A stretch of DNA of 64,000 bases from Alphaproteobacteria bacterium (GTDB lineage: Bacteria; Pseudomonadota; Alphaproteobacteria; RF32; CAG-239), in contig JAZQZB010000039.1 in NCBI GenBank assembly GCA_045633825.1, positions 7,961 to 71,960 of the forward strand. The letters are read 5' to 3'. Each line of letters starts with the position of its first letter. Position 1 is the first letter of the stretch. Below are positions 10,684-61,116 of the stretch, one piece after another. The translations under genes and the position numbers were made by a program. The notes under the pieces were generated by a model. It ran no database searches. It was not told the DNA's origin and was given only the letters and a program-made list of their open reading frames with translations.

Positions 10684-10687
10684 AACT

Positions 10688-43770: not shown

Positions 43771-44229
43771 TTACAATTTCAAATACTTCAAAAACGCATC
43801 GCAACCTTCAACGATATCCCAATAGGTTTCATCAAAATTGCCGGTGTACCAAGGGTCTTTGATATTGCGAGGTTTGTTTGCAAAATCGAGTAAGCGATGG
43901 ATTTTGTTTTCCGTATCCGGACCGACGAGCGATTGAATGTCCTCAATATTGCTGTCGTCCATCGCCAAAATATAGTCATAATAAGCATAATAGCGCGGAC
44001 GAATGCGGCGGGAATAATGCTCCTCAAACGGCACATGCATGGATTTCAACATCTCGCGCGTGCCATGATGAATGCCGGCATGACACATCTCGTTGTAACT
44101 TTCAGTCGCGGCAGAATCAATTTCAAACTTGTCAGCCAAACCGCGTTCCTCAACCATTTGCTTAAACACAAACTGCGCCATCGGCGATCGACAAATATTC
44201 CCCAGACATACAAACAGAACTTTGATCAT
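43771..44229 (-). CDS. Low-molecular-weight protein tyrosine phosphatase / ArsC-like
   Basis: CLGNICRSP P-loop (CX5R) at the N-terminus; start taken at MIKVLFVC…. Confidence 0.85.
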   Translation of the reverse strand: MIKVLFVCLGNICRSPMAQFVFKQMVEERGLADKFEIDSAATESYNEMCHAGIHHGTREMLKSMHVPFEEHYSRRIRPRYYAYYDYILAMDDSNIEDIQSLVGPDTENKIHRLLDFANKPRNIKDPWYTGNFDETYWDIVEGCDAFLKYLKL

Positions 44230-44374
44230 TAAAATACCTAAAAAAATATATGCTCTTCTTATTATATCCATATAAGATAAAAATCAATGATCTTGGAAGA
44301 TTAATTAAAAAGATTGCATTAAAACTTTTTGTTACCTATATATATTATATCGCAATTTAACTGGAACTTAGTTT

Positions 44375-46069: not shown

Positions 46070-46110
46070 AGGAGCAAATTTATATATAAATTGCTTGAGG
46101 AACTGATAAA

Positions 46111-46953: not shown

Positions 46954-48507
46954 ATCCGCTAACTTTATTTGGCGATTTACACTAAATATATTTCTTAATT
47001 CTTCGTGTGTAAAGTTTCTCTCCTGATGTCTCTCAATTAGCTTAATCATGTTGCTAACTGTTATCCCTGATCCAGAAACAGAAGATTCTTCTGCCTCAGC
47101 TCGTATTTGTCTGTCTATAGTATCTATAAAACCGCCAGCAATATATGTGAAAAATCCTATAGGATACTGACAATCGCTATAGTTAGCGATATTTTCAATA
47201 TAATTATGAACCATCCTGTTGTGGTGATCACCTGTAATAGAATATCTGCTGTAGGCCTTATTATCTATTATAGATTGATATCCGTTTTCATCAGAAATAA
47301 GCAATACATCCGGAGCTGATTTAGCTCCTGTTTGACCAAGATGTTGAGCATTATAACCGAAAATATCCTTAAAAATATTAGTCGTTGCAATTTCAAAATC
47401 TGTTGCTTCATCTTTTCCTTTAAAAGCCATTTCATAGTAACCAGATAAAAAACCACCTATAGCCCCATGTGGATATTCTCTATATAGTACATTTTCTACG
47501 AGTGATGCATCTGTTCCTGTATTCTGTGCTATATTCTCAACAATATCCGCATTTATTTTTGATATTGGTTTATGTATTGAATATGCAATAAATGCTTGCC
47601 GAATTCTTTGTATCTCAATAGACCTACTGGAAACCGTACCTGTATTTAACAGATTTCGCGTATCTTTTCGATGCCATGGATCCAAGCCATATCTTCTTTG
47701 AAAAAACTCATGATCATCTGGTCGTATAATAAAAGATGGAGGGTTTGCCAATATAAATCTTACTTCTTCTAGTTTTTCAGGCAACAATACTACTTTTCCA
47801 TCTTCCCTGTATATTAACTGGATATACTCCAACCAATTTGCTATCGTGTTGGCTGTATCTAGTAAATGGCTATATGGGTGCTCTAAATTAACAATACCAG
47901 TTGAAGGAGCGTGTGTATCAATAAAATCCCTAGGTAATGATCTATCTCCATCATTTCTAAATGTTATAATTTTTCTAATAACATCTTCCAAACAATTTTC
48001 TGTATCATCAACACCTTCAGTCATCACAACTTTAGCCATTTCTTCTTCTGTCAAATAACAGATTCTTTCATCAATGAGAAGACGTAATATAAAAATAAAT
48101 GGATGCACGTGAAATCTAGGAGACACCTTTGTTTTAATGCCAAATGGTGATGGAAATTGATATTTTAATACTTGATTTTTAAGCACAGTAACTGGAGATT
48201 TCCCTTCCATAATAGCTTCACCTGCTAAAGTTAGATATGGGATTCCCGTTGATTCCTGAATAAATATTAAGCCAAGACTTGATAACCACGCCTGGTATGT
48301 TCTTCCTCCAGATCCTGAATGGTCTCTTCTCTCACCAATTCTTTTTAAGCCACTCCTTTCAAGTTCTTCTTCAAATTGAATATGAACTGATCTACTACGT
48401 GTCCATTGCGCAGATAATGCAACATTAGAAAAAGCGGCTAATACTTCAGGAATACTATTTAACTTTCTTTTAGGACGAGTAACCCACCAATAATTCAGAA
48501 TTGCCAT
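46945..48507 (-). CDS. Putative Type II restriction endonuclease (PD-(D/E)xK near C-terminus)
   Basis: 520-aa ORF 6 nt downstream of a C5-MTase in an operon; C-terminal APDVLL…SIIDNKAY resembles a PD…(D/E)xK core. Confidence 0.55.
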   Translation of the reverse strand: MAILNYWWVTRPKRKLNSIPEVLAAFSNVALSAQWTRSRSVHIQFEEELERSGLKRIGERRDHSGSGGRTYQAWLSSLGLIFIQESTGIPYLTLAGEAIMEGKSPVTVLKNQVLKYQFPSPFGIKTKVSPRFHVHPFIFILRLLIDERICYLTEEEMAKVVMTEGVDDTENCLEDVIRKIITFRNDGDRSLPRDFIDTHAPSTGIVNLEHPYSHLLDTANTIANWLEYIQLIYREDGKVVLLPEKLEEVRFILANPPSFIIRPDDHEFFQRRYGLDPWHRKDTRNLLNTGTVSSRSIEIQRIRQAFIAYSIHKPISKINADIVENIAQNTGTDASLVENVLYREYPHGAIGGFLSGYYEMAFKGKDEATDFEIATTNIFKDIFGYNAQHLGQTGAKSAPDVLLISDENGYQSIIDNKAYSRYSITGDHHNRMVHNYIENIANYSDCQYPIGFFTYIAGGFIDTIDRQIRAEAEESSVSGSGITVSNMIKLIERHQERNFTHEELRNIFSVNRQIKLADLR

Positions 48508-48513
48508 GACGAA

Positions 48514-49557
48514 CTACTCCTTAATACTTGCCTCAACAGATTCGTAAGGAATTTCGGCAAAAGTTTTTAATATTGCTTCAAATATAATTTTGGCACCTTC
48601 TGCAGGAACCGCCATACCTATTTGTTTTCTTACAGACTCTTTACTTCCCTTAAATAAAAAGTCATCAGGGAAAGTCTGTAATCTAGCTCTTTCTCTATTG
48701 GTCAAAGCTCTATTTTCTTTCCAATGATATACATGTGTACCACCACCGCCTGAACCTGTAATGGTATACGCTGGTTTTTTAGGATCCAACCTTTTATAAA
48801 TTTGGCTGATTTTGGCACCCTTAACTTTTAACTGTAATTCCTTAGGCATGGTTGCTGTAAAAGCATTTTGACCAGGTTTTATATATTTCAATCGTTCAAT
48901 TACTCGAGGAGATTGTTTTGTCTGTTCATTATTGTGTGCATCTTTTGAAATTGGCGGGTTTTCAATAGCTTCCTTACATGTTTTGGTTTTATATAACTTA
49001 GGAGAAGGTACTCTAAATTTGTAAGGCAAGTCATTTCTAATACCTACAATTATCATCCTATGCCTAGCTTGAGGGATGCCGTAATCTTCAAAATGATATA
49101 GATTCGGATAAATTTTATACCCGGCATCAATCATATCCTGTTGTATACGCTTAAATGCAGACCCTTCATTAGCGGACTTAATGCCTCCAACATTTTCAGC
49201 CAAAAACCATTGGGGTTGATATTTTTTTAGTACTAGAATTCCATAGGAATATAATGGCCCAAACTTTCCCTTAAATCCTAGTTGTTCTCCAACTACAGAA
49301 AAGTCATTACAAGGAAAACCAAAAGCTAGAGCATCTATTGCACCTAACTTTCCAATATCAAGTGTATGGACATCCTCACAATACACACTTTTAGGAGCAT
49401 TTGGACATATGTTATGAGTATAAGTTTCACATGTATCCCTATCGTAATCATTTGCCCATGCATGCTCTATCTTCATGCCAGGAACATCAGCATTCATAGC
49501 ACCCCATGCCAGGCCCCCAGGCCCACAAAACAATTCTCCAAGTTTAAACTTTTTCAT
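48514..49557 (-). CDS. DNA (cytosine-5)-methyltransferase
   Basis: Motif I FCGPGG, motif IV PCNDFS, motif VI ENV, motif VIII QARHRMIIVG; start taken at MKKFKLGELF. Confidence 0.9.
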   Translation of the reverse strand: MKKFKLGELFCGPGGLAWGAMNADVPGMKIEHAWANDYDRDTCETYTHNICPNAPKSVYCEDVHTLDIGKLGAIDALAFGFPCNDFSVVGEQLGFKGKFGPLYSYGILVLKKYQPQWFLAENVGGIKSANEGSAFKRIQQDMIDAGYKIYPNLYHFEDYGIPQARHRMIIVGIRNDLPYKFRVPSPKLYKTKTCKEAIENPPISKDAHNNEQTKQSPRVIERLKYIKPGQNAFTATMPKELQLKVKGAKISQIYKRLDPKKPAYTITGSGGGGTHVYHWKENRALTNRERARLQTFPDDFLFKGSKESVRKQIGMAVPAEGAKIIFEAILKTFAEIPYESVEASIKE

Positions 49558-49799
49558 TATCAATCTCTTCAAAATCTCTCTTAGTAAGGAGTATAAAATC
49601 AAAAGGTAAAGAATCAACTAAATTATTATAATTAAAATTTTCATAATATGTCTTTTAAAGAAAACGTTGATCTTAAGGTGCATATCGGCAAGAATATATT
49701 GTTTAAGAAACTTGTATTTTAAATAAAGTGTTGCAAAAAAAATAAGGTGAAAGTATTGTTTTGTAAAATATATTAAGAATTTTCAAAAGGACTTGGACT

Positions 49800-51821
49800 A
49801 TGCATATATCAAATGTAGAAATTCATAATTTTAGAAATTTCAATGATGTTAGAATAAAATTAAAAGATGGAGTAAATGTAATATTGGGTCCAAATAATGC
49901 AGGAAAAACAAATTTATTAAAAGTTATTAATCTGCTCTCTAATAGAGAAAATTTGAAAGTTTCAGATTTTAATTTTAATAATCTTTTTGATAACGCTAAA
50001 AGCTTTTTAAGTGAAGCTCCTAAAATTGAAATAACTTATACAATAGAACATATATTTAATTATGATAAGATTGATAATGCTATAATAAAATTAAAAAACT
50101 TTATCATTTACAGTGATGATGGCAATCTTCAGCCACAATCTGATGGAAACTATAAAATTATAGGAAAATTCAAGTTATCTTATGGACTTAATGAAAAATT
50201 TATTCAGGAATATAAAAACGATATTCAAAATGTACAAAATTCAGCAAATAAAGAATATTTTAATAAATTTATAGAAATTTTAGAAAAGTATATAGAGTAC
50301 TATAACTGGACATGTTATAATGCAAATGATGAGATAGTAAATAATTTTTCAGAAATTGGAAATATATTCAGCATAGACTTTATTCCTGCAGATCGTAAGA
50401 CAGATTCTTTGCTTCCGGAGACAAGAAAATTTATAAAACAAAAAATTAAAGAGGATGAGTTGTCTCGAGGAAATATAAGAACTGACGTATCAAAAGTTTT
50501 TAATGATAGGTTACAACACATTAAAATGGATATTCAAGAGGCATTTAAAGAAGACCAGGAACGTATAGGTATAACCAATGGGCACAACATATTAGAAACA
50601 GATTTTAAATATGAAGGTGATGCGGCGGATTGTTTCCAGTTTATTTTAAAAGACGAGGATAAACAATATAATCTTCCCCTAGAGAACAATGGATTGGGAT
50701 ACAATAATTTAATACAGATTTACAATATTATTAAATTTAATATTCATGACGACTATAACATTATATTGATGGAAGAACCGGAGTCCCATTTGCATCCTGC
50801 TATGCAATATAAGCTATTCAAATATTTACAAAGTTTGGAAGAATCTAAAGAGAATAAAATAAAAAATCAAATAGTAATTACAACTCACTCGCCTAATATA
50901 TCTGCTTCTTCAAATATAGATGATATTATCAGTGTACATTACTTTCGAGATTCTACATATGGAGTTTTAATCGAAAATATCAAAGAAAAGTTTGTTTCAG
51001 AGGATACTAGTAAAAATCAAAAATTGCAACAATCTAAAGAGCATTTAATGAAGTTTTTAGATGTAACAAGAAGTGACATGCTTTTTACAGAAAAAACAAT
51101 ATTAGTAGAAGGTTTAGCTGAAAAAATGTTAATGCCATTATTCTCAATTCATGAGAAAATAGATTTGATTGATAATCATATTTCTCTTGTGGAAGTTGGG
51201 GGAATTAATTTTAAACATTTCTTACCACTATTTATCAATGGAAAAAATAAGGTGCTTTGTATTCGAGATTGCGATTTTTCTTATAAAGATAATGATGATA
51301 ATCTAAATATAAACAAGGAAGAATATAAGAAACATATATCAGAGTTGGATATAATTAATGAAGATTATAAAGGTAACGCTAATATTCGCGGAATTACGCA
51401 AATGAAAGGAGGTTCTACTTTTGAAGATGAATTGTATTTAGATAATATTTGTGAAGATGATAAAGATGAAAGTAAAGATAGTATCTGTAAAAATTTATTA
51501 AAATTAGTTTTACCTAAAAGCATCATAGAGTCTAGATTAATTAAAAAGCTTGACCTTTTGTTTTGGTATGAACACAAAGAAGAAATACCAAATGAGAAGA
51601 CTAAGAATAAAATTACAAATAAACTAGAAATATATAAAAAATTTTACGATAGCGCAGAAGACGATAAAAAATATATTGAAGATTTATTTTTTGCAAAATT
51701 GTTTTTAAGTTATGCATTTAATCAAAAAGGAAATTTAGCTCTTTCTATTTTAGTATCTCCTTTTGCTGATACTCTAAAAACTCCAAAATATATAAAGGAA
51801 GGACTAAAATGGATAAAATAA
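49800..51821 (+). CDS. gajA: Gabija GajA-like OLD-family ATPase/TOPRIM endonuclease
   Basis: Walker A GPNNAGKTNLL, Walker B LMEEPESHLHP, H-loop TTHSPN, TOPRIM ILVEGLAEKML glutamate plus RDCD; overlaps a UvrD-like helicase gene. Confidence 0.75.
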   Translation: MHISNVEIHNFRNFNDVRIKLKDGVNVILGPNNAGKTNLLKVINLLSNRENLKVSDFNFNNLFDNAKSFLSEAPKIEITYTIEHIFNYDKIDNAIIKLKNFIIYSDDGNLQPQSDGNYKIIGKFKLSYGLNEKFIQEYKNDIQNVQNSANKEYFNKFIEILEKYIEYYNWTCYNANDEIVNNFSEIGNIFSIDFIPADRKTDSLLPETRKFIKQKIKEDELSRGNIRTDVSKVFNDRLQHIKMDIQEAFKEDQERIGITNGHNILETDFKYEGDAADCFQFILKDEDKQYNLPLENNGLGYNNLIQIYNIIKFNIHDDYNIILMEEPESHLHPAMQYKLFKYLQSLEESKENKIKNQIVITTHSPNISASSNIDDIISVHYFRDSTYGVLIENIKEKFVSEDTSKNQKLQQSKEHLMKFLDVTRSDMLFTEKTILVEGLAEKMLMPLFSIHEKIDLIDNHISLVEVGGINFKHFLPLFINGKNKVLCIRDCDFSYKDNDDNLNINKEEYKKHISELDIINEDYKGNANIRGITQMKGGSTFEDELYLDNICEDDKDESKDSICKNLLKLVLPKSIIESRLIKKLDLLFWYEHKEEIPNEKTKNKITNKLEIYKKFYDSAEDDKKYIEDLFFAKLFLSYAFNQKGNLALSILVSPFADTLKTPKYIKEGLKWIK

Positions 51822-53737
51822 CATCTCAGGATGATTTGAGAATCTACGACGATAACAATAATTTTCGAATTTTTGCTGGCCCAGGTGCAGGAAAGACACA
51901 TTTAGTTATTGAAAATATTAAATTCATTATAAAAAACAGTAAAAAGTTAAAATTCAACAATCAACGAAAAATTTTGTGCATCACCTATACGAATGCGGCG
52001 GTTGATGAAATCACTAGAAGGTTAGGGCCTTTTTCAAAATTTGTTGTAGTATCAACTATTCACTCTTTTATAAATGATTATATTATATGTCCTTTTCAAA
52101 AACAGTTGAAACTACAAATTCAAAAAGAATTTAACATTAACATTCCTAAAAAAAATAAATTATCCTCTGTTCAAGAAGGTTTTACCGTATTAAGCGGACA
52201 TAAAAAAGAAGATATCTATGGTTGGATTAAAAAGAAATACCCGGAAATTGATGAGAAAATGTATTCTGATATATCAAGAATGAAAATGACTAATATTTCT
52301 ATTGATATAAGTGATATTAATAAATATCCTTTCAATGAAAACGCAAAGGCATGTATAAAACAAATAAACAACAATCAAAATATTTCTAATATTATTAAAG
52401 AGTATATTTGGTCTGTTGCTAACAAATTATCATTTGACGAAATTTTGTATTTTGGATTTGATTTATTAAAAAATTATCCTATTGTATCTTACATATTAAG
52501 AGCAGAATTTCCCTATGTCTTACTTGATGAATATCAAGACACAAATCCTATTCAAAATAAAATTATCAGCATGATGTCTGAAAAAGAGTGCTCAATTATG
52601 GTTGTCGGAGACATTGCTCAATCAATTTATTCTTTTCAAGGTGCAAAATATCAAGAATTTCAAAATTTTTGTATAGCATCTCCTCTGGACACAATAACCA
52701 AAGCAATAGAAGATAATCGTAGGTGTAATAAAAACATAATTAATTTATTAAATTTTCTAAGACAGACAGATACAGCTTTCCAACAAAAATGCATACAAAA
52801 CAAAAATACTGATAAAGTCACTTTTATTATTCAAAAAAATAAGACTATGCATAAATCCATATATGAAATTATTCCGAATAATACGCAAATATTATGTCGT
52901 AAATGGACTGAGGCGTTTAATTATATTTCAGATGTTTCTGATGAACAGAAAAAATTAATAAATTCAATTTATAATGCCTATACATATTCTGTTAATAAAG
53001 ATTTATCAAAAGAAATAGAACTAAGAAAGGATTTATGGATAGACTCCGCCTTAGATATAGCTACTTTGCAAGAAGCTTATGAAAAGAAAAATCTTCCAAA
53101 AGCATTGAATATATTTGAAAAATATCTTGATATTAAAGATTTATTCAAGAATTTTGATGCAAGTAAAATGGCAAGCTTAAAAGATATTACAAATTTATGG
53201 AAAGATATTTTTTCTAGTAATATTGAAAATTGTACCTTAAAAAATTTAATTAAGGATATAAATGTTCGTCTTGATCAATTACAGAATATAAATATATTAA
53301 AGAAATTTGAATATCCACAATCCCCTGATGACGAAGGTTATTTTGATGAAATTTATAAACATATTAACTATATAACGTATTCTTGTGCAAAAAAAATTGT
53401 ATTAGATTTGTTTTCGCCATCATCAAAGCATATGACGATACATAAAGCAAAGGGAAAAGAATTTGATAATGTTCTAGTTAACTTAGAACCTTTTTCTCGC
53501 GGCGAAGAAAAAACTATAGCCCCATCAAATGTTTTCATTTGCCCTCAAATTATTGGAGATAATTGTTATAATGAATATACAAGAATAGCATATGTTGGTT
53601 GTAGCAGAGCCAGAAATAAACTCTATATTCATTTAAAGGGAGATGAACAAACTGAAGACGCAATTAGAAAAGCTTTAAATAATTATTACAGTAATAATCC
53701 AGAGAAACAAAATTTCTTTGATTTTATTTATTTTTAA
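51809..53737 (+). CDS. gajB: Gabija GajB-like UvrD/PcrA-family helicase
   Basis: SF1 motifs: I AGPGAGKT, Ia ITYTNAA, II LDEYQDT, III GDIAQSIYSFQGA, V/VI IHKAKGKEFD, YVGCSRARNKLY. Confidence 0.75.
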   Translation: MDKITSQDDLRIYDDNNNFRIFAGPGAGKTHLVIENIKFIIKNSKKLKFNNQRKILCITYTNAAVDEITRRLGPFSKFVVVSTIHSFINDYIICPFQKQLKLQIQKEFNINIPKKNKLSSVQEGFTVLSGHKKEDIYGWIKKKYPEIDEKMYSDISRMKMTNISIDISDINKYPFNENAKACIKQINNNQNISNIIKEYIWSVANKLSFDEILYFGFDLLKNYPIVSYILRAEFPYVLLDEYQDTNPIQNKIISMMSEKECSIMVVGDIAQSIYSFQGAKYQEFQNFCIASPLDTITKAIEDNRRCNKNIINLLNFLRQTDTAFQQKCIQNKNTDKVTFIIQKNKTMHKSIYEIIPNNTQILCRKWTEAFNYISDVSDEQKKLINSIYNAYTYSVNKDLSKEIELRKDLWIDSALDIATLQEAYEKKNLPKALNIFEKYLDIKDLFKNFDASKMASLKDITNLWKDIFSSNIENCTLKNLIKDINVRLDQLQNINILKKFEYPQSPDDEGYFDEIYKHINYITYSCAKKIVLDLFSPSSKHMTIHKAKGKEFDNVLVNLEPFSRGEEKTIAPSNVFICPQIIGDNCYNEYTRIAYVGCSRARNKLYIHLKGDEQTEDAIRKALNNYYSNNPEKQNFFDFIYF

Positions 53738-53906
53738 TATTTGAAGTAATTTTAATCACTTATTATGTTTTTATGTAAAGCATTCGAAATCTTAAGTCTG
53801 TGCATTTTTTTGCACTATTTATTGCAAATTTTGCAACAACTAAATGATTTTTTAAGGTTTGCATTGTTTTTTTACATCTCATTGATTTTTCAAAATATTT
53901 AATCCA

Positions 53907-53977
53907 AATTTGGTCATTTGTGACTTTTCCATTTGGCAAATTGTGGAGTTTTCATTTGGTCATTTGTGGAATTTTTT
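53907..53977. repeat. Iteron-like array A: three tandem ~22-bp units (catttggtcatttgtggaatttt consensus)
   Basis: Seen directly; units tttggtcatttgtgactttt / ccatttggcaaattgtggagtttt / catttggtcatttgtggaatttttt. Confidence 0.7.
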
Positions 53978-54486
53978 CAAATTTCCTTGCTCAAAATATC
54001 CTGGCTTTTGGTAAGCATTTTGCGGATGTATTCATCTAAGATTGCAGAGGTTTGGTATTCATCGGTTCCGAGTTCAGCGGCAATTAAAGCCCCATATCGC
54101 ACTGGGAAACTCATAAAAAAATCTCTCAATGCTCGGCCGAGATTAAAGGAATAATTACCGGCACGTTTGCGGTCAACCATCTCGCCGGTTAGCATCTTGA
54201 GTTTGGCTTTGGCCAGCATTGCTCGGTAATAAATGTCCGCCGTTTTGGCCTGCTGAAACGTTCCCATATTGCTCATCTTGATACCACCCTGCGCCTCAAA
54301 CAGCGGGTCCGGTTTGCGTTGCTGTGCCGGATCGGTATTCATAAACCACTCTCGGTTTGCCTCATCAACATCAATTTTATTGTTTGCAGTTTTATGAATA
54401 CGCCCGGACTTTATCGCCGTCTGCACCGCATTCAGGTTCACCCCATGAATACGTGCATATTCTCGCATTGATACTAATTTTCCCAT
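53977..54486 (-). CDS. HTH DNA-binding protein resembling phage terminase small subunit (TerS-like)
   Basis: N-terminal MREYARIHGVNLNAVQTAIKSGRI HTH, as in Nu1/TerS-like proteins; GC-richer than surroundings by eye. Confidence 0.45.
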   Translation of the reverse strand: MGKLVSMREYARIHGVNLNAVQTAIKSGRIHKTANNKIDVDEANREWFMNTDPAQQRKPDPLFEAQGGIKMSNMGTFQQAKTADIYYRAMLAKAKLKMLTGEMVDRKRAGNYSFNLGRALRDFFMSFPVRYGALIAAELGTDEYQTSAILDEYIRKMLTKSQDILSKEI

Positions 54487-54508
54487 TAGATTTTCCTTTC
54501 AAAACACC

Positions 54509-54542
54509 AAGTGACCAGCCCGATTTCAAAAGTGACCAGCCC
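54509..54542. promoter_or_regulatory. Two 13-bp direct repeats aagtgaccagccc (54509-54521, 54530-54542) in the promoter region of the TerS-like gene
   Basis: Seen directly; 8-bp spacer. Confidence 0.5.
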
Positions 54543-54640
54543 CCAATTTTTGAAAATCATATAACTATTTGATATTAAAAGATTTATTAAATATACCCGA
54601 CCAGCCGGAAATTTTCTGTTCAGCTAGCGAAACGGCGCGG

Positions 54641-54683
54641 CTTGCGTCCCCGCATACGAAAAATTGCTAGGAAGGACCCGCAA
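54641..54683. repeat. Direct repeat copy 1 (gcgtccccgcatacgaaaaattgctaggaaggacccgc)
   Basis: About 85% identical to 56591-56627; the two copies flank the GHKL ATPase gene. Confidence 0.65.
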
Positions 54684-54781
54684 TCCACTAAATGTTTATA
54701 TCCTATATTCAGAATAAGAATATAATTGACGATTATTCTGCTATGAATCTTTTGTAATCTTATTGATTATTTTGTAATTTA

Positions 54782-56458
54782 TTAACTTGAAATATTCTTG
54801 TCAGATGTCCTTGGGCGAAATTCTAATTTTAATTTATCTTTTATAAAATCTTTTAATACAATGATTTCTATTTTTCGTGCTTTAGAAGAATTGTCTAAGA
54901 AATATCTTCTAATCCCATTATCCTTCGCAATTGATAATTTACGTTCTTCTTTACATAAATCCTGTACGGTATCATCATTTTTTAATTTAATATCCCAACA
55001 TACAATAGTATGCACATTGTCGAAGCAGTGATTAAACTTACCAGATAAAATATATTTAAATTCAACATAAAATATTTTACTATCCGAAAGCGCTGTGTCA
55101 TTCTTTGATTTAACAAGAACGTCTATACCTTCGTGTGTATCATAATCAACGATGCTAAAATTAAATAATTTAGGTTCTAGCATATCTAATAACATAAATA
55201 AAGAAAAAACACCATTTTCTTGTCTTGGTTCAATTAGCTCATGTCCCTTATAAACACAAGTATTTGCCTTATTTACTTGGTCAATACGATATTTATAGTC
55301 CCTTTTTTCTTTTTCCATTGTTCTATAACCATCAGCTTCTTCTGAAAGCCAATCTAAAAAACGCCAATCATCACCTTCTAAAATACTATCAAATATTTTT
55401 TTTACTTCACTTCTAATATCTTCTAAAATTTCTTGAGGTGTATTTTCCGTTGACCCTCTATTGGCTGTTAGTTTTAATCCTTGACAATTAAAGAAAGCAT
55501 GAAAACGAGTATATTCACTACCTTTGATTGCTATCCATTCATTTTTGCGTTGTATAGGGATAAAGTCTTTGCAAAGCCATAATCCGTATCTTTCTTGAAC
55601 AGTATAGGAACCCGTTGGCGCGACATAGCCGGCATGTCGTATCATTTTATTATAGTCAGTTTTTACTTTATTTCCTTCAATCATAAAGATTGCTTGATAT
55701 GATAATTCTGGTGAATTTTTTAAATGTCCTTGTTTAATAATTTTTTTACAATACCTATTAGGAGCATCTACGGTAAAGTCATCAAATAGTTTATTAATGT
55801 TGGATGTTTCTTGTGGAAAAATATGCCCAAATACTAGTTCTTCCGGCTTACAAACATTTAGTCCCTTTAATTTTAATTTAACATTTTCATATGTCTTAAT
55901 GTTAAACTCTTTTTCTGGAGAACCAAATTTTGTAAACCAATAAATATAATCTTTAAGGATTTCTTGGGTAAAACGATCGCGATGATTATTATTGTATCCT
56001 AAAACAGTAATTTTTGTTCCTTGAAAATTTGGATCAATTTCTTGAATTTCAACTCCTGGAATTTCTCTATTAGATAATTTTGTATATGGATCGTTCATCT
56101 CAGCTGAATAAGCTTTACCATCTTTGCATGTTTCAACTTTAACATTGGTACTATTAAAGTAAACTTTCGTTCCATGTCCCTTTTCTCCTATATTTTCCTG
56201 ATCTCTTTTTGTAGAGTCTCCTAAATTAAAGAAACTATGAAGTTCATCGATATTCATGCCTAGACCATCATCAGTCAGCGTAATTTGAAGTAATTGTCTT
56301 CCAGATATTTTTACCATATCAAATAAAATTTCAATATTTTGAGCATTAGCGTCAAAAGAATTACTAATTGCCTCACGAACAATTTCCAATGGGTTAGAAA
56401 AGTCATTTGCTATTTCTATAAACTCTTGTGTTGCTTCAACTTTAGGTAAATATTGCAT
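54782..56458 (-). CDS. GHKL-family (HATPase_c-like) ATPase, standalone 558-aa protein
   Basis: Bergerat fold motifs: N-box EAISNSFDANA, G1 DDGLGM, G2 GEKGHGTK. Confidence 0.7.
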   Translation of the reverse strand: MQYLPKVEATQEFIEIANDFSNPLEIVREAISNSFDANAQNIEILFDMVKISGRQLLQITLTDDGLGMNIDELHSFFNLGDSTKRDQENIGEKGHGTKVYFNSTNVKVETCKDGKAYSAEMNDPYTKLSNREIPGVEIQEIDPNFQGTKITVLGYNNNHRDRFTQEILKDYIYWFTKFGSPEKEFNIKTYENVKLKLKGLNVCKPEELVFGHIFPQETSNINKLFDDFTVDAPNRYCKKIIKQGHLKNSPELSYQAIFMIEGNKVKTDYNKMIRHAGYVAPTGSYTVQERYGLWLCKDFIPIQRKNEWIAIKGSEYTRFHAFFNCQGLKLTANRGSTENTPQEILEDIRSEVKKIFDSILEGDDWRFLDWLSEEADGYRTMEKEKRDYKYRIDQVNKANTCVYKGHELIEPRQENGVFSLFMLLDMLEPKLFNFSIVDYDTHEGIDVLVKSKNDTALSDSKIFYVEFKYILSGKFNHCFDNVHTIVCWDIKLKNDDTVQDLCKEERKLSIAKDNGIRRYFLDNSSKARKIEIIVLKDFIKDKLKLEFRPRTSDKNISS

Positions 56459-56590
56459 TTTGGGCTCCTGTGAACATTATATTGATTATAAAATTTAATA
56501 CATTGTAGGAAACAGTACGATAGAAAACAATAAAAAAATGTAATTAACAACAGTTAACATATACACTATACAATTGTTAATATAACACAA

Positions 56591-56627
56591 ATTAGTTTGC
56601 GGTCCCGCATATGAATTATCGCCAGGA
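56591..56627. repeat. Direct repeat copy 2 (gcggtcccgcatatgaattatcgccaggaaggacccgc)
   Basis: Matches 54641-54683; lies just upstream of the GHKL gene. Confidence 0.65.
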
Positions 56628-56989
56628 AGGACCCGCTGGTACCTTTACCCCCTAAAAAGGACTGGGCCTCTATACAAAACCGGCGGTTATGGTCATGTTA
56701 GTATCATACTATCCTTAATTCTAGAAACCACCGCTCATTTTGTATTGAGAATAGGGCAGATTTGTTTATTAGCTCCTTTACAAATATTCGCCGGTTTTGT
56801 GGGTATGGCACAGGGCAAAATGCCGGCTTCGTTTTTCTTGTATAAGCAAGAGCGTTTGGCCACATCTTTGGAGGCTCTGATTTCGGCAACCTTATCAAAT
56901 GTTTTTTGATCTATAATGGCCGGGTGTTGCCCGTCATAGAGTTCATTTTTGTGTTTGACTTTGCCAAGATAAATAAGTATTGGTGTTTT

Positions 56990-57105
56990 TTTATTTAATG
57001 GTTTTGCAGAAATTCATTTCATGGTTTTACAATTTATCGTTCGGTAGTTTGAGAGTTTTTCGTTCGGCAGTTTGAGGATTTTATATTCGGTAATTTAAAT
57101 CTTTT
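56990..57105. repeat. Iteron-like array B: five tandem ~22-23-bp units
   Basis: ttatttaatggttttgcagaaa / ttcatttcatggttttacaattta / tcgttcggtagtttgagagttttt / cgttcggcagtttgaggatttta / tattcggtaatttaaatcttttt; a 61-bp block is repeated in array C. Confidence 0.75.
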
Positions 57106-57360
57106 TAATTGTTCTGATTATTTTTGGTAAACTTAATTTCCCATTTATTAAAAATATATAGATTTAATCCGAGAGCTTTTATAACAAGTAATAACTTACC
57201 TGTTTGAGTGGTGTTTTTTCCGTTTTCAACATCACTGATAAATCTACGACCAGTTCCAGATATTCAAGCAAGTTCTTCTTGAGTTACTCCTTGTTGTTTA
57301 CGAATATCTCGTATTAATTTTCCTATATCTTTCATTGTTGTTAAATCTTGGCTATTCATA
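57106..57360 (-). pseudogene. Frameshifted XRE/HigA-like HTH antitoxin gene
   Basis: ATG at 57360 gives MNSQDLTTMKDIGKLIRDIRKQQGVTQEELA then TGA. The -1 frame continues ISGTGRRFISDVENGKNTTQTGKLLLVIKALGLNLYIF…, a canonical XRE HTH split by a frameshift near 57262. Confidence 0.65.
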
Positions 57361-57375
57361 ATAAACCTCTTTTTT

Positions 57376-57446
57376 TGTTACCATTCGGTATCAATAGTGT
57401 ATAAATTTGTGCAGATATCAAGTTTTTGTTACCGAACAGTATCATT
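57376..57446. promoter_or_regulatory. Paired operator-like half-sites (gttaccattcggtatca / gttaccgaacagtatca) upstream of the HTH pseudogene
   Basis: Seen directly; partially inverted cores. Confidence 0.4.
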
Positions 57447-57566
57447 ATTATTATATGGTAAAACAAAGTTTTATGTATCAAAGCAAAATAATTTTTACAA
57501 AAAAAAGAGTATCCTTGCAGGAATACTCTTTTTCAAATTTTAAGGGGTATTTTTTATGAAAGTATT

Positions 57567-57962
57567 TTATGGTAAGCCAAGTTTTTTTAATGCTTTTTCA
57601 AAAACATATTCCAATCCGGCATTTTTTATTTCATCAACATAAATTACGTTTCTTATATATTTTAAATCACATAGAATTATCTCATCAGATTTATCAATAT
57701 AAAAATTTGGTTCATAAATAATATAGCGGCCTGTAAATTTAGATAAAAAATTTAAAATGTTTTTATATTTATTAATATATTGAGCAATTAAAATTATTGC
57801 TTTTTCTCTATCATAGTTTTGAATAACTTCTGTTATATCCTTGGAAGATGTTTGTACTTTAGCTATACGGTGAGCATTTTTAAGTATTTCATTAGCAATA
57901 TTGTAAATATTGTCTGTTTTTTTATTTTCTTTATTGATATCAATCTGATAATTCTCCATCAT
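57567..57962 (-). CDS. Hypothetical protein (131 aa)
   Basis: ORF 14 nt downstream of the AAA ATPase gene on the same strand. Confidence 0.5.
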   Translation of the reverse strand: MMENYQIDINKENKKTDNIYNIANEILKNAHRIAKVQTSSKDITEVIQNYDREKAIILIAQYINKYKNILNFLSKFTGRYIIYEPNFYIDKSDEIILCDLKYIRNVIYVDEIKNAGLEYVFEKALKKLGLP

Positions 57963-57976
57963 TTATTTAATATCCC

Positions 57977-59260
57977 TTAATCCTTTAGTGAACCAATAGG
58001 AACTATTAAAACACCATCTTTACGACGATAAGCATAATTACCTACACCGATTAAAACCATTTTGAATGATGGAGCTTTCATTTTTGTTGTATCAATATTG
58101 GCTTCCAGCTTATTTAATGTTGTCGCCCCTTCTTCAATAAGTCTGTCACCGCCGAGTTTGATTTCAATTAATCCATAAGAGCCATTACGTAAATGAACAA
58201 CAGCATCACACTCTAAATCATTTCTATCTCTATAGTGATATACCTGTCCATCTAAAGCATCTGCATAAATACGTAAATCTCTGATACATAAGTTTTCAAA
58301 CATCAATCCCATTGTTTGGAGGTCATTTATTAAATCTTTTGCCCCAAGACCTAATGCAGCAGTTCCGATAGAAGGGTCAGTAAAGTAACGAGTATCAGAA
58401 GCCCTGATTGCTGTTTTGGAACGTAAATTAGGATTCCAAGCTAAAGAATCCTCAATAACAAAAATCTTCTTTAATGCTGATATATATGAGCTGATAGTTA
58501 CATTTTTGTTTGTTAAATCTTCAGTACCCTCATTAGCATAAACATCTTGTGTTATTGATGATATTTTTGCTTGCGAAGCAATAGAGCGTGCATATGAACG
58601 CAATATACGTTTAGTTTTTTCAGCATCCCTTTTAACGTTATCAATTCGTGAAATATCATCATTGACCACAGCATCAAAGTAGTTAATTGCCAATTGTAAA
58701 GCAACATCAGTATTTGTTCCAATGGATTTAGGCCATCCACCGCGACAAATTAAAAAAGCAATTTGTTCTAAGTCTAAACTATTGGTTCCTGTAACTTTCT
58801 CATTGTCAGAGAATAAATCGGCCAAAGAAACGCTACCATTACTTTCGCCTGATTCATATAAACTCATTGGACGCATTAACATGCGAGAAATTCTTCCGGT
58901 ACCACTATGTGATATTTCTGATAAATCAGCAGGAACAGCAGAACCTGTTAATACAAATTGACCAAATTCATCACGTTTATCAACCTCAAAACGTATGGCA
59001 TCCCAAAGTTTTGGAGCTAATTGCCATTCGTCAATTAATCTTGGAGTTTCACCATTTAACAGAAATGATGGATCCATATCTGCCATTTCTATGTTTTGCT
59101 TTTTTTGTGCGGGATCTTGCATAAGTAATATACTTTTAGCAATCTGGCTTGCTGTTGTTGTTTTACCGCACCATTTAGCACCTTCAATTAACACGGCACC
59201 GGAACTGGCTAATTTTTTCTGTAAAATACTATCTGCTAATCTTGTTTTATATTCTTTCAT
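57977..59260 (-). CDS. AAA+ ATPase of the AAA_14/DUF4143 family (COG1373-like)
   Basis: Walker A GAKWCGKTT near the N-terminus, Walker B-like FVLTGS, about 427 aa as for DUF4143 ATPases. Confidence 0.65.
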   Translation of the reverse strand: MKEYKTRLADSILQKKLASSGAVLIEGAKWCGKTTTASQIAKSILLMQDPAQKKQNIEMADMDPSFLLNGETPRLIDEWQLAPKLWDAIRFEVDKRDEFGQFVLTGSAVPADLSEISHSGTGRISRMLMRPMSLYESGESNGSVSLADLFSDNEKVTGTNSLDLEQIAFLICRGGWPKSIGTNTDVALQLAINYFDAVVNDDISRIDNVKRDAEKTKRILRSYARSIASQAKISSITQDVYANEGTEDLTNKNVTISSYISALKKIFVIEDSLAWNPNLRSKTAIRASDTRYFTDPSIGTAALGLGAKDLINDLQTMGLMFENLCIRDLRIYADALDGQVYHYRDRNDLECDAVVHLRNGSYGLIEIKLGGDRLIEEGATTLNKLEANIDTTKMKAPSFKMVLIGVGNYAYRRKDGVLIVPIGSLKD

Positions 59261-59304
59261 GTTGAAACTCCTTGGTAATATCTATTAATATAAACTATAT
59301 TTTA

Positions 59305-59413
59305 TTATTTTGCAAGTTTTCATTTCATGTTTTTGCAATTTTTCATTTAATGGTTTTGCAGAAATTCATTTTATGTTTTTGCAATTTATCGTTCGGCAGT
59401 TTGAGAGTTTTTT
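59305..59413. repeat. Iteron-like array C: four to five tandem ~22-bp units (catttcatgtttttgcaattttt etc.)
   Basis: Seen directly; the block 59352-59412 is about 93% identical to 56999-57060. Confidence 0.75.
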
Positions 59414-59520
59414 GTAATTAAAGTAAGATTGAGATAACGCTTGATTTTTTGAATAAAATTCACTTTAATTATAAAACACCTATCAATTATTATTAGGACT
59501 TAATTAAAACGGAGTGGACT

Positions 59521-61116
59521 ATGAGACTATTGATTATCGGCGGTGGGGCATCTGGGGCAAGTTGTGCAACCAGATTCAGAAGATTAAATGAACAAGCCCA
59601 AATTACTATATTGGAAAAGACGGATGAAGTTTCTATTGCTAATTGTGGTTTGCCTTATTATATTTCCGGTGTGATTGAAAATCGTGATGACATATTGGTT
59701 TCTAATCCTCAAAAATTTAAGTCATGGTTTAATATTGATGTAAAACTTAAAACAGAAGTAGTTCAAATCAATAAAGAAGAAAAGTATGTTATAACAAATA
59801 CGGATGAGCAAATTTCATACGATTATTTGGTAATAGCAACGGGGGCAACTCCCATTGTGCCAAACTTTGAAGGTTTAAATAAAGACAAAATATTTGTGGT
59901 GCGTTCACTTTATGATGCTGATAAAATCAAAGCCCATATTAAGAAAAATAATATTCATAAAGTAGCAGTTATCGGGGGCGGTTTTATTGGCGTAGAGGTT
60001 GCCGAAAATATGATAGAAATGGGCTTAAAAACCTCTTTGATTGAAATGAACAATCAGATTTTGGCGCCTTTGGATGTGGAAATGGTACAACTTGCTCATA
60101 AAGAAATGCTATCCAACGGAATTGATTTGATTTTATCTGATGGTGTTCAAAAGTTTGACGGCAATAAAATTGTTTTAAATTCCGGTAAAGAAGTTGAATT
60201 TGATATGTGTGTTTTGGCCATTGGTGTTAAACCTGAAATCAAATTGGCAGAAACAGCCGGACTTCAAATCAACCGAGGCATTATTGTTGATGAAACATTA
60301 AAAACGTCTGATGCATTTATTTATGCTGCCGGTGATAATGTGGAAATAAAAGATTTTGTCAGTTTGCAAAATACTTTGGTGCCATTGGCAGGACCGGCCA
60401 ACCGTCAAGGGCGTATTATTGCCGATAACATTAACGGGGTGCGTTCTACATATAAAAGCACGCAAGGATCATCTGTTGTTAAAGTGTTCGGCTTAACGGT
60501 TGCAAGTTCAGGTAATAATGAAAAGCAATTAAAACAAAAGCAAATCCCATATTTAAAAACGTATGTATATTCACGCTCTCGTGCCGGATATTATCCGGAT
60601 GCTGATGCAATTTTATTTAAGTTATTGTTTAACAAAGACGGAAAAATTTTGGGCATTCAGGGAATAGGTAAAAGTGGTGTTGAAAAAAGGGTTGATGTGG
60701 TGGCAACCATTATGAGAAATAACGGATCTATTCAAGATATGATTGATGCGGAACTTTGTTATGCACCACCGTATTCCAGTGCGAAAGATCCTGTCAATGT
60801 GTTGGGCATGAATGCCGATAATATTATAAACGGATTAGTAAAACCTGCCTTTATAGAAGATTTGGAAGAGGCTCTTGTTATAGATGTTCGCCCACCGATG
60901 ATGTATCAGCAAGGAGCTGTTCAAAATGCTATTAACATTCCGATTATGGAAATTAGACAGCGTTTGAATGAAATTCCAAAAGATAAGAAAGTGGTTTTAT
61001 CTTGTTCAACAGGATATACCAGTTATTGCGCCTCCAGAATTTTAATGCAAAACGGCTTTGATAATGTTTACTCCTTTATGGGGGGATATGATTTTTATAA
61101 AGCAGTAAAATCGTAA
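59521..61116 (+). CDS. CoA-disulfide reductase / NADH oxidase-family flavoprotein with C-terminal rhodanese domain
   Basis: FAD motif IIGGGASG, redox Cys (SIANCGLPY), second Rossmann VIGGGFIGVE, C-terminal rhodanese (…LSCSTGYTS…). Confidence 0.8.
   Translation: MRLLIIGGGASGASCATRFRRLNEQAQITILEKTDEVSIANCGLPYYISGVIENRDDILVSNPQKFKSWFNIDVKLKTEVVQINKEEKYVITNTDEQISYDYLVIATGATPIVPNFEGLNKDKIFVVRSLYDADKIKAHIKKNNIHKVAVIGGGFIGVEVAENMIEMGLKTSLIEMNNQILAPLDVEMVQLAHKEMLSNGIDLILSDGVQKFDGNKIVLNSGKEVEFDMCVLAIGVKPEIKLAETAGLQINRGIIVDETLKTSDAFIYAAGDNVEIKDFVSLQNTLVPLAGPANRQGRIIADNINGVRSTYKSTQGSSVVKVFGLTVASSGNNEKQLKQKQIPYLKTYVYSRSRAGYYPDADAILFKLLFNKDGKILGIQGIGKSGVEKRVDVVATIMRNNGSIQDMIDAELCYAPPYSSAKDPVNVLGMNADNIINGLVKPAFIEDLEEALVIDVRPPMMYQQGAVQNAINIPIMEIRQRLNEIPKDKKVVLSCSTGYTSYCASRILMQNGFDNVYSFMGGYDFYKAVKS

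What the first reader, a model, noticed from the sequence alone, without database searches (positions are those of the whole stretch)
54641..56627. Standalone GHKL ATPase gene bracketed by ~40-bp GC-rich direct repeats
The 558-aa GHKL/HATPase_c-like protein (N-box, G1, G2 present) has no obvious partner. It is flanked about 1.95 kb apart by near-identical repeats (…cccgcataYgaa…aggaaggacccgc) in a GC-rich segment that is compositionally foreign. The remaining intergenic DNA at 56.46-57.0 kb is GC-rich and non-coding and looks like decayed foreign sequence. GHKL ATPases of this type occur in several nucleic-acid-targeting defence contexts. A single-gene, repeat-flanked version could be a distinct mobile defence cassette.
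Basis: partly seen in the sequence, partly recalled or inferred. Interest (0 to 1): 0.6.

Follow-up and report, generated by a model that had tools for sequence, protein, structure and literature searches.

The report
GHKL defence-like gene between duplicated cos sites
A stand-alone ATPase gene with a likely nuclease tail, probably an anti-phage gene, sits as cargo between two copies of a phage DNA-packaging (cos) site in a decayed phage-like element; this is a known kind of arrangement, but one copy starts at the predicted packaging cut, which hints at how the cargo was captured.

Summary
A 558-aa ORF (54782-56458, minus strand) with a genuine GHKL ATPase plus transducer module is bracketed by 41-42-nt direct repeats (54640-54681 and 56595-56636, 83% identical, found nowhere else in the window).

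The repeats are not cassette-specific. They match the cos site of a widespread family of lambda-like (gpA-terminase) phages and their recombinase-bearing, satellite-like derivatives. The motif is an 11-nt cohesive-end equivalent followed by CGCATA-N12-AGGAAGGACCC. In Rhodobacter RcC phages the experimentally defined genome ends fall exactly inside this motif.

The GC-rich flanks are remnants of such an element: an intact TerS homologue, cosB-like iterons, and fragments of a rep-like gene and a serine recombinase. The remnant lies in a 15-kb defence island. The AT-rich GHKL gene is cargo in the element's variable slot next to cos.

The same cassette (98% nt) lies between the same sites in a different backbone. 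The right-hand copy starts at the predicted cos nick, which implicates terminase-cut ends in its capture.

The protein has the paraMORC3 architecture (GHKL, S5, C-terminal E-D-ExK), like the validated Shedu I-D protein VcSduA. It lacks DUF4263, has no PADLOC model, and has no conserved partner across 80 loci. Its function is untested.

The parts
54782..56458 (-). 558-aa GHKL ATPase, transducer (S5-like) domain and C-terminal E-D-ExK domain (paraMORC3-type architecture)
   Evidence: ORF. Pfam HATPase_c_3. AF2 model pLDDT 85.7. Foldseek matches to Hsp90, MORC3/4, MutL and GyrB over about 420 columns, E down to 4.5e-14. Invariant E414, D446, E466, K468 in 46 homologues. The C-terminal fold is not confirmed.
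54640..54681 (+). Left repeat: a complete cosN region. It has the cohesive-end equivalent GCTTGCGTCCC (54640-54650) and the right-end arm CGCATA-N12-AGGAAGGACCCGC. It is continuous with cosB-like iterons and terS.
   Evidence: Matches the composite cos pattern. Homologous to the junction of the physical ends of RcKemmy and RcDormio.
56595..56636 (+). Right repeat: the cohesive-end equivalent GTTTGCGGTCC (56595-56605) and the right-end arm only, with no cosB. Similarity starts exactly at the predicted cos nick.
   Evidence: From 56606 onward it is identical to the L013/L004-type backbone. The sequence upstream (aatta) is unrelated to that upstream of the left copy (gcgcg).
54682..56594 (.). Cassette interior (29% GC): the GHKL gene with 100 nt downstream and 136 nt upstream non-coding DNA. 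98% identical to metagenome contig L002.
54506..54639 (.). cosB-like module: iterons GTGACCAGCC (54511-54520, 54532-54541) and CGACCAGCC (54598-54606), and a GCTAG box (54623-54627) placed 23 nt before CGCATA
   Evidence: Sequence. Conserved in L003-L019 and in phage contigs, with lineage-specific iterons. RcKemmy has three GTGGAAACC repeats and the same 23-nt GCTAG-to-CGCATA spacing.
53977..54486 (-). 169-aa terminase small subunit homologue, full length. It starts 154 nt from the cohesive-end equivalent at 54640 and 195 nt from the far end of the left repeat.
   Evidence: phrog_57 E 3e-20. Homologous to genes annotated as terminase small subunit in Rhodobacter RcC phages and to family f3 of the phage contigs.
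56637..56827 (-). Right-end flank of an L004/L013-type element, including the last 14 codons of its rep-like gene (56781-56822). The rest of that gene is deleted.
   Evidence: blastn 89-95% to L004, L005 and L013; tblastn 14/14 aa.
56816..56974 (-). Fragment of a large serine recombinase gene (aa 226-278 of 542), a pseudogene remnant
   Evidence: tblastn 96% to the L004 recombinase and 70% to the L003 recombinase. Pfam Resolvase, Recombinase and Zn_ribbon_recom on the intact L003 protein.

Best explanation
What it is: the ORF encodes a GHKL ATPase with a transducer domain, fused to a roughly 165-aa C-terminal domain that carries an invariant E-D-ExK signature.

Where it sits: it is a cargo gene in the variable slot at the cos-proximal right end of a phage-derived element. 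That element is a lambda-like cos family with a gpA terminase, of which many members are satellite-like: serine recombinase, DUF2924, a rep-like gene, cos, and defence cargo. The window holds a decayed copy inside a 15-kb defence island between the LMWPc and CoADR genes of an AT-rich gut alphaproteobacterium.

What the repeats are: two copies of the element's cos right end. Each has an 11-nt cohesive-end equivalent plus the conserved arm CGCATA-N12-AGGAAGGACCC. The left copy is a full cos with cosB iterons and terS. The right copy starts at the predicted nick.

Inferred protein mechanism: by analogy with VcSduA (Shedu I-D), ATP-driven dimerisation of the GHKL clamp on DNA gates the C-terminal nuclease, which cuts invading phage DNA.

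Inferred origin of the arrangement: a terminase-cut right end of one element was joined to DNA that carried the GHKL gene next to another cos. The sites then allowed the cassette to be exchanged between backbones.
For: Protein:
- GHKL fold with transducer domain.
- Invariant motifs in 46 homologues.
- No conserved partner in 80 loci from more than 15 phyla and archaea.
- Neighbours include PrimPol/TOTE, PbeA, type IV REases, AriA, GajA, type I S subunits and integrases.
- In the window it sits beside Gabija, an R-M pair and PDC-S01.
- Precedent: VcSduA is a GHKL-middle-PD-(D/E)xK protein and a validated single-gene defence; E27A and K557A abolish it (PMC12137116). The paraMORC3 family was described as GHKL + S5 + E-D-ExK, encoded by stand-alone genes (PMC2292703).

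cos identity:
- The motif is found in 43 + 12 IMG/VR contigs, next to iterons, in genomes with terS, gpA terminase (PF05876, PF20454) and a lambda-type portal.
- 10 of 43 sites lie within 150 nt of a contig end, against 0.99 expected.
- RcKemmy and RcDormio have defined ends with an 11-base 5' overhang (PMC8601537). Their joined ends read GCTAG-N23-|CGCATA-N12-GGAAGAACC after three iterons.
- The composite pattern hits 39 sources, all of them sites of this motif (for the two RcC genomes, the joined physical ends), and gives 0 hits in 20 shuffles of 3.3 Mb.

Empty sites and mobility:
- L004, L005, L008 and L013 join the window's two flanks through a single site.
- Related strains have an empty slot (L100) or a 209-aa gene there (L102).
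- L002 carries the same cassette in another backbone.

Known context: defence hotspots adjacent to cos are described in P2 and P4 (PMC9122126).
Against: - The nuclease fold of the C-terminal domain is not confirmed. There is no Pfam or PADLOC hit, no PDB sequence hit, no Foldseek hit in PDB or BFVD, and hhalign against a Cas4-like family is negative.
- No experiment exists on this family.
- The termini of the window's own element family have not been mapped. The assignment rests on homology to RcC phages, and a 43-nt nhmmer model alone is not significant on their junction (E 0.27).
- Which side carries the overhang rests on the convention that records start with the cohesive end (my own knowledge).
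- In L002 the left copy is heavily diverged although the cassette is 98% identical. A simple cut-and-religate cassette model does not predict this.
- Only two occurrences of the cassette are known.
Confidence: 0.6

Rival explanations
1. One reading: a dedicated mobile defence cassette whose 40-nt repeats are its own recombination sites. It would be inserted and excised by a site-specific recombinase, as with integron or IMEX cassettes, possibly the element's serine recombinase.
For: The same cassette occurs in two backbones, with identity ending inside the repeats on both sides. The site has conserved arms around a hypervariable centre. A large serine recombinase is encoded by the intact elements.
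Against: The site occurs in over 70 loci without the gene and is a single copy in nearly all of them. Only the window, L002 and L007/L015 have two copies. Other cargo genes in the same slot have no second site. The arms are not inverted repeats, and there is no integron integrase or attC symmetry. The site does not split at the chromosomal junction; the island's junction with the host lies elsewhere, at about 59413. The motif maps to physical genome ends of cos phages.
Confidence: 0.12
2. The duplication is a by-product of ordinary homologous or illegitimate recombination between two related elements that were co-resident or in tandem, followed by deletions. Terminase cutting plays no part, and the match between the right copy's boundary and the nick is chance.
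For: The window's left module is L003/L007-like (about 80%) and its right flank is L004/L013-like (89-96%), so the backbone is a chimera. The remnant has at least three internal deletions. A second pair of about 100-nt direct repeats (56988-57087 and 59317-59412) flanks other cargo. L007/L015 show tandem cos modules.
Against: The right copy's similarity starts within one base of the predicted nick, in a conserved module of about 190 nt (roughly a 2% chance). The same junction is kept in L002 while both flanks differ. Only 15-40 nt of identity is available for RecA-type exchange.
Confidence: 0.25
3. The protein is not an autonomous defence nuclease. It could be the restriction subunit of an R-M system with an unlinked methylase, like the GHKL-bearing BbrUII/HgiDII enzymes. 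Alternatively it could be a phage or satellite DNA-processing or counter-defence factor.
For: Weak N-terminal matches to NCBIfam BbrUII/HgiDII (E 7e-9) and PADLOC REase_II. A C5 methylase lies 5 kb away. Phage-type relatives carry SAM synthetase, a counter-defence-like gene, in the same slot.
Against: The score is 34.7 against a cut-off of 550, and only the GHKL part aligns. The methylase already pairs with a FokI-like REase. Homologues are overwhelmingly chromosomal and solitary, with no linked methylase: only isolated methylase matches among the 132 neighbours.
Confidence: 0.15

Closest known systems
VcSduA, the Shedu type I-D single-gene defence of Vibrio cholerae (PMC12137116); Shedu GHKL class (bioRxiv 10.1101/2023.08.10.552793)
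   Same: A single polypeptide with an N-terminal GHKL ATPase, an Hsp90/MORC-like middle domain and a C-terminal nuclease-type motif. It stands alone and is carried on mobile islands. The catalytic Glu is at an equivalent position (E27 in VcSduA, E29 here).
   Different: The defining Shedu nuclease domain DUF4263 is not detectable here or in 20 distant relatives. No PADLOC SduA hit. No match to solved Shedu structures by sequence or Foldseek. The protein is shorter (558 aa; the VcSduA nuclease Lys is K557). It is untested.
paraMORC3 family (Iyer, Abhiman and Aravind 2008, PMC2292703)
   Same: GHKL + S5 + an extra C-terminal globular domain with E-D-ExK. Sporadic distribution across distant bacteria and archaea. 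A subset are stand-alone genes without a conserved neighbourhood.
   Different: I could not test sequence membership, because no paraMORC3 profile or member sequence was available. The paper reports profile hits to RecB nucleases, which I could not reproduce with the tools at hand.
[quoted passage not shown]
   Same: Variable anti-phage cargo directly next to the cos site, in a phage family and in its satellite-like derivatives that share the cos signal. Cargo is swapped between backbones.
   Different: Different phage lineage (lambda-type gpA terminase, serine recombinase, Alphaproteobacteria and gut/rumen hosts). Here the cos right end is duplicated on both sides of the cargo, and one copy is truncated at the predicted nick. 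The two papers read here do not mention such a duplication.
Lambda cos (cosQ-cosN-cosB followed by Nu1); cos of Rhodobacter RcC-cluster phages (PMC8601537)
   Same: The order is right-end arm, cohesive end, iterated TerS-binding-like repeats, then terS or early left-end genes. RcC phages have an 11-base 5' overhang. The distance from site to terS start is 154-195 nt here and 191 nt in lambda (lambda figure from my own knowledge).
   Different: The sequence motif (CGCATA-N12-AGGAAGGACCC) is specific to this family. The functional roles of its sub-sites have not been tested.

Membership tests
GHKL (Bergerat-fold) ATPase superfamily | Motifs I-IV (ExxxNxxD; DxGxG; G-rich lid; GT) and the Bergerat fold | tested here: met
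   Pfam HATPase_c_3 at 51 bits against a cut-off of 25. Invariant E29, N33, D36, D63, G65, G67, G91-K98 and T148. Foldseek matches to Hsp90, MORC, MutL and GyrB, E 1e-8 to 4.5e-14.
MORC/paraMORC-type GHKL + S5 module | A transducer (S5-fold) domain directly after the GHKL domain | tested here: met
   Structural alignments of 384-460 columns to MORC3, MORC4, MORC2 and SMCHD1 ATPase modules and to Hsp90 N-M domains. Model pLDDT above 85 over residues 100-400.
paraMORC3 (Iyer 2008) | C-terminal restriction-endonuclease-fold domain with E-D-ExK | tested here: inconclusive
   The motif residues E414, D446, E466 and K468 are invariant and lie on a helix-strand-strand-strand core. No HMM, profile or fold match to any nuclease was found.
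paraMORC3 (Iyer 2008) | Sporadic, laterally mobile; a subset are stand-alone genes | tested here: met
   80 loci from more than 15 phyla and archaea at 45-63% identity. The best neighbour family occurs in 7 of 80 loci.
Shedu (SduA) | DUF4263 (PF14082) PD-(D/E)xK nuclease domain | tested here: not met
   No DUF4263 hit at E up to 10 in 17 C-terminal domains, nor in the full protein or 20 distant relatives. No PADLOC SduA hit. No PDB sequence or Foldseek hit.
BbrUII/HgiDII restriction enzymes (NF050001) | Full-length match above the curated cut-off; linked methylase | tested here: not met
   34.7 bits against a cut-off of 550, residues 20-169 only. No adjacent methylase.
Lambda-like cos site | Coincides with the physical cohesive ends of virion DNA | tested here: met
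   Met for the related RcKemmy and RcDormio phages: defined ends with an 11-base 5' overhang fall between the 11 nt and CGCATA of the shared composite motif. It cannot be tested for the window's own element. Contig-end enrichment (10/43 against 0.99 expected) supports it.
Lambda-like cos site | Linked to a gpA-type terminase, terS and portal, with iterated repeats between the cut site and the left-end genes | tested here: met
   Synteny in IMG/VR contigs. PF05876, PF20454 and PF05136. Iterons in every lineage. The window keeps terS and the iterons only.
Integron gene cassette (attC) or Xer/dif module | attC inverted-repeat structure with IntI nearby, or a dif-like 11-6-11 site | tested here: not met
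   Checked by inspection only. The arms are not inverted repeats. There is no covariation supporting a hairpin, no tyrosine integrase next to the site, and no resemblance of the right arm to a XerD arm.

The most novel reading that the evidence does not exclude
Terminase-cut cos ends act as the entry point and exchange site for cargo in cos-proximal defence hotspots. A DNA segment bounded by two directly oriented cos right ends, here the 1.9-kb GHKL cassette, could be released with cohesive ends. It could then be ligated into any co-resident phage or satellite with a compatible cos. This would be a recombinase-free 'cos cassette' mechanism. It would explain how unrelated defence genes reach this hotspot, a question that PMC13586616 leaves open.
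Probability: 0.2. Interest if true: 0.75.

Novelty: new variant of a known kind. Interest (0 to 1): 0.5.

Why it matters
There are three points.

1. A very widespread family has the same logic as the validated GHKL-Shedu VcSduA but a different, unrecognised C-terminal domain. It has more than 1,600 proteins in the 90%-identity collection and 608 representatives at 50% identity. Members are 45-63% identical across bacteria and archaea. No PADLOC 2.0 model matches it. It is a cheap single-gene candidate for phage-defence testing.

2. The work defines a conserved cos motif and a cos-proximal cargo slot for a large group of lambda-like phages and satellite-like elements of Alphaproteobacteria and of gut and rumen bacteria. 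This extends the 'defence hotspot next to cos' rule beyond P2 and P4.

3. The duplicated cos right end, with one copy truncated at the predicted nick, is a concrete and testable clue to how cargo is captured at that hotspot.

Tried and rejected
- RNA element: Rfam found nothing at gathering threshold in the window and nothing meaningful at E up to 10 around the site. A column-pair scan of 53 distinct sites showed no convincing covariation.
- Recombinase attP: the site is not split at the chromosomal junction. The island's junction with the host is at about 59413, inside a different repeat module.
- Integron attC or Xer dif: rejected by inspection (no inverted arms, no integron integrase).
- Repeats as a general property of the gene family: no site in the 81 other homologue loci. 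Flanking direct repeats occur in 7/80 homologue loci against 12/185 control genes.
- Partner gene: none.
- C-terminal domain identity, all negative: Pfam, NCBIfam, PADLOC and PHROGs; PDB profile search; Foldseek against PDB and BFVD with a pLDDT-90 domain model; hhalign against a Cas4-like phage nuclease family; Pfam on 20 distant relatives to look for DUF4263.
- Contigs ending inside N12: a left-arm-only scan found none.
- A 43-nt nhmmer model did not reach significance on the RcKemmy junction. A spaced composite pattern did.
- A literature search for the motif string found only unrelated papers.
Full report
**The observation**

The window has an ORF at 54782..56458 on the minus strand that encodes 558 aa. 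Pfam HATPase_c_3 matches residues 26-142 (E 1.7e-13, above the cut-off) and nothing matches the remaining 400 residues. A 40-nt direct repeat lies at 54642-54681 and 56597-56636, 83% identical and 1955 nt apart. A degenerate pattern derived from it matches only these two places in the window and none of 100 shuffles. By eye the similarity begins two bases earlier, at G54640 and G56595.

The gene and the cassette interior are 29-30% GC, at or below the host's 34-35%. The flanks are 40-46% GC.

**What the flanks are**

The ORF to the left (53977-54486, minus strand, 169 aa) matches the PHROG terminase small subunit family (E 3e-20).

The GC-rich 'non-coding' DNA to the right is a skeleton of a mobile element, 89-96% identical to metagenome contigs L004, L005 and L013. 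It consists of:
- 56597-56714: the repeat plus 80 nt.
- 56693-56827: the end of a rep-like gene, whose last 14 codons are intact.
- 56816-56974: codons 226-278 of a 542-aa large serine recombinase.
- 56988-57087: a further conserved non-coding module.

Strains of the same species have the LMWPc gene directly next to the CoADR gene (L101, L103, L104). The window's 44272-59414 is therefore a 15-kb island. It contains:
- an AAA_21 ATPase;
- a FokI-like REase with a C5 methylase;
- Gabija (GajA and GajB);
- the element remnant with the GHKL gene;
- a PDC-S01/DUF4143 ATPase.

Two sister contigs (L100, L102) carry the recombinase element at the same chromosomal place. Next to the site, L100 has an empty slot and L102 has a 209-aa gene.

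**The repeat belongs to the element, not to the gene**

An exact-pattern scan found the site in 16 metagenome contigs and one viral contig. All have the same layout. Defence-type cargo (often type I R-M) and a small gene such as DUF3489 are followed by three or four iterons (GTGACCAGCC or variants). Next comes a conserved stretch of about 100 nt that ends in the site. Conservation stops exactly at ...GGACCCG. After that comes a variable slot of zero to three genes, and then a rep-like gene, the large serine recombinase and DUF2924.

L004, L005, L008 and L013 join the window's left flank to its right flank through a single site. They are the empty form of the window's arrangement.

The 2.5-kb metagenome contig L002 is 98% identical to the window over 54649-56635. 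Beyond the right copy it continues into the flank typical of a different backbone (L012/L017 type). Beyond the left copy it continues into a diverged iteron module. However, two copies of the site occur only in the window, in L002 (where the second copy is degenerate), and in L007/L015, which hold two complete iteron-plus-site modules in tandem.

**The site is a cos site**

Relaxing the pattern to CCGCATA-N12-AGGAAGGACCC gave 43 IMG/VR contigs, and a left-arm pattern gave 12 more. These are complete phage-type genomes:
- On the iteron side lie a ParB-N/methylase gene, several small genes, a TerS homologue of the window's 169-aa protein, a gpA-type large terminase (PF05876 and PF20454) and a lambda-family portal.
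- On the other side lie cargo such as SAM synthetase, then DUF6362, DUF6291, DUF2924 and the serine recombinase.

Ten of the 43 sites lie within 150 nt of a contig end, where 0.99 is expected (20 against 4.6 within 700 nt).

The window's TerS has homologues annotated as terminase small subunit in the Rhodobacter capsulatus RcC-cluster phages. Those phages have experimentally defined ends with an 11-base 5' overhang (PMC8601537). I joined the right and left ends of RcKemmy and RcDormio and read the complement. This gives three GTGGAAACC iterons, then CGCTAG, then 23 nt of which the last 11 are the first 11 bases of the record, then the physical end, then CGCATA-N12-GGAAGAACC. The window's left copy has the same GCTAG-N23-CGCATA spacing.

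A composite pattern (GCTAG, 22-24 nt, CGCATA, 11-14 nt, GGAAGNACC) hits 39 sources in 3.3 Mb. All of them are sites of this motif, and both Rc junctions are among them. It gives no hit in 20 shuffles. A plain 43-nt nhmmer model is not significant on the Rc junction, so the spaced motif and the synteny carry the argument.

GenBank records of cos phages begin with the cohesive end (my own knowledge; lambda does). On that basis the window's cohesive-end equivalents are 54640-54650 and 56595-56605. The conserved arm beyond CGCATA occupies the position of lambda cosQ, and the iterons occupy that of cosB.

**The junction**

The right copy has the cohesive-end equivalent and the right-end arm but no cosB. 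Its similarity to the left copy starts at the first base of the predicted 11-nt overhang. The bases before it are gcgcg on the left and aatta on the right; L002 also has aatta.

Read in virion orientation, the complete right end of one element (L004/L013 type) abuts the GHKL cassette. The cassette is followed by a complete cos of another type (L003/L007-like iterons) and then terS. I infer that a terminase-cut right end was joined to DNA carrying the GHKL gene next to another cos. A chance boundary within one base of the nick, in a conserved module of about 190 nt, has roughly a 2% probability.

Evidence against a simple 'cut at both cos sites and religate' cassette model is that L002's left copy is heavily mutated while its cassette is 98% identical. 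This could be decay of a redundant cos, but I cannot show it. Ordinary recombination between co-resident related elements remains a serious rival. A second pair of direct repeats (56988-57087 and 59317-59412) flanking other cargo shows that the island is a patchwork.

**The protein**

A search of 5.8 billion proteins gave 1,608 hits. The best 120 are 54-98% identical over the full length. An exhaustive search of 50%-identity representatives gave 608. A genome scan gave 80 loci from Alphaproteobacteria, Bacillota, Acidobacteriota, Bacteroidota, Spirochaetota, Chlorobiota, Planctomycetota-like MAGs, Thermoplasmata, Methanofastidiosia and others, at 45-63% identity. No neighbour family is shared by more than 7 of the 80 loci.

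Among 132 immediate neighbours:
- Pfam finds ResIII/DEAD helicases (6), the TOTE primase domain (4) and integrases (4).
- PADLOC finds PrimPol, PbeA, type IV REases, AriA, HEC-01A, GajA, type I S subunits, bSEFIR and BnzB.

An AlphaFold2 model has pLDDT 85.7. Over about 420 columns it matches Hsp90, TRAP1, MORC2/3/4, SMCHD1, MutL, GyrB and Top6B ATPase-plus-transducer modules (E 4.5e-14 to 1e-8).

Residues 393-558 model confidently on their own (pLDDT 90.4) as helix, three strands, and a beta-rich subdomain. E414 lies on the helix, D446 on the second strand and E466-x-K468 on the third. All four are invariant in 46 homologues. This is the E-D-ExK pattern of PD-(D/E)xK nucleases. None of the following recognises the domain: Pfam, PADLOC, a PDB profile search, Foldseek against PDB or BFVD, or hhalign against a Cas4-like family. 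The nuclease assignment is therefore an inference.

**Comparison with what is known**

The architecture is that of the paraMORC3 family: GHKL, S5, and a C-terminal RE-fold domain with E-D-ExK, partly encoded by stand-alone genes (PMC2292703). It is also that of VcSduA, a single-gene GHKL-nuclease system of Vibrio cholerae. VcSduA protects against T1-like phages and needs both its ATPase Glu and its nuclease Lys. It is classed as Shedu type I-D because its nuclease domain is DUF4263 (PMC12137116; bioRxiv 2023.08.10.552793).

DUF4263 is not detectable here or in 20 distant relatives. I therefore do not file the protein under Shedu. It probably works like VcSduA but is a different family.

[quoted passage not shown] How such cargo is acquired is still discussed (PMC13586616).

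**Verdict**

The finding is real and mostly explained. It is a candidate single-gene GHKL-nuclease defence carried in the cos-proximal hotspot of a decayed phage or satellite remnant, and the 'repeats' are a duplicated cos right end.

- Shown: the fold of the N-terminal two thirds, the absence of a partner gene, the identity of the flanks, the empty sites, the second backbone, and the cos homology.
- Inferred: nuclease activity, defence function, and the role of terminase-cut ends.

Interest is moderate. It comes from an uncatalogued but very widespread family and from a concrete clue to how cargo is captured at cos.

Noticed in passing
window 56988-57087 and 59317-59412: A second pair of about 100-nt direct repeats (three TTTTCATTTCATG-like units plus CGTTCGGYAGTTTGAGRG units), also present in L004 and L100. 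It brackets an XRE-like pseudogene, a 131-aa ORF (57567-57962, minus strand) and a PDC-S01/DUF4143 ATPase (57977-59260, minus strand). The island's junction with the host lies right after the second copy (about 59413), so this module may hold the recombinase attachment site.
   Followed up: partly
window 44272-59414: A 15-kb defence island inserted between the LMWPc (43771-44271) and CoADR (59521-61116) genes; the site is empty in sister strains (L101, L103, L104). It holds an AAA_21 ATPase with a 280-aa ORF (44375-46953), a FokI-like REase with a C5 methylase (46945-49617), Gabija GajA/GajB (49800-53737), the GHKL cassette and PDC-S01.
   Followed up: partly
L037 (Leptospira sp. 'Mane', NZ_CP177134.1) 2200-12500: Repeats of about 175 nt (78-97% identical) separate at least five consecutive genes, including the GHKL homologue. 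This looks like an array of repeat-delimited gene cassettes. L063 (Leptospira vanthielii) shows a weaker version.
   Followed up: no
L003 and L140 (both from IMGVR_UViG_3300042816_000265, 52.5 kb): One viral contig holds two cos sites. One is in a satellite-like unit (recombinase, rep-like gene, type I R-M, no structural genes seen). The other is in a phage-type unit (ParB/methylase and small left-end genes). This could be a helper phage and its satellite side by side.
   Followed up: no
L007 9124-9488 and L015 910-1271 (site-oriented coordinates): Two complete iteron-plus-cos modules in tandem, 191 nt apart, with different iteron sequences (GACCAGCC and GACCACCC).
   Followed up: partly
cos sites of 53 distinct loci: The 12 nt between CCGCATA and AGGAAGGACCC are hypervariable between lineages (GAAAAAT, GAATTAT and GGCCTAT cores even within one species). 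In L124 and L136 they read GGCCGAAAGGCC, a GNRA-type hairpin. The cause is unknown.
   Followed up: no
window 53908-53976: Tandem 'CCACAA(A/T)TG' type repeats just beyond the terS stop codon, conserved in L002, L003, L012 and L019. Function unknown.
   Followed up: no
window 57150-57400, minus strand: Read by eye, this looks like an XRE/HTH_3-type gene interrupted by a stop codon (…QQGVTQEELA*ISGTGRRFISDVENGK…). Not checked with any tool.
   Followed up: no
L001 (4.5-kb metagenome contig with the 80%-identical homologue P0002): This closest distinct homologue has no cos site nearby but lies about 600 nt from a 219-aa small serine resolvase gene.
   Followed up: no
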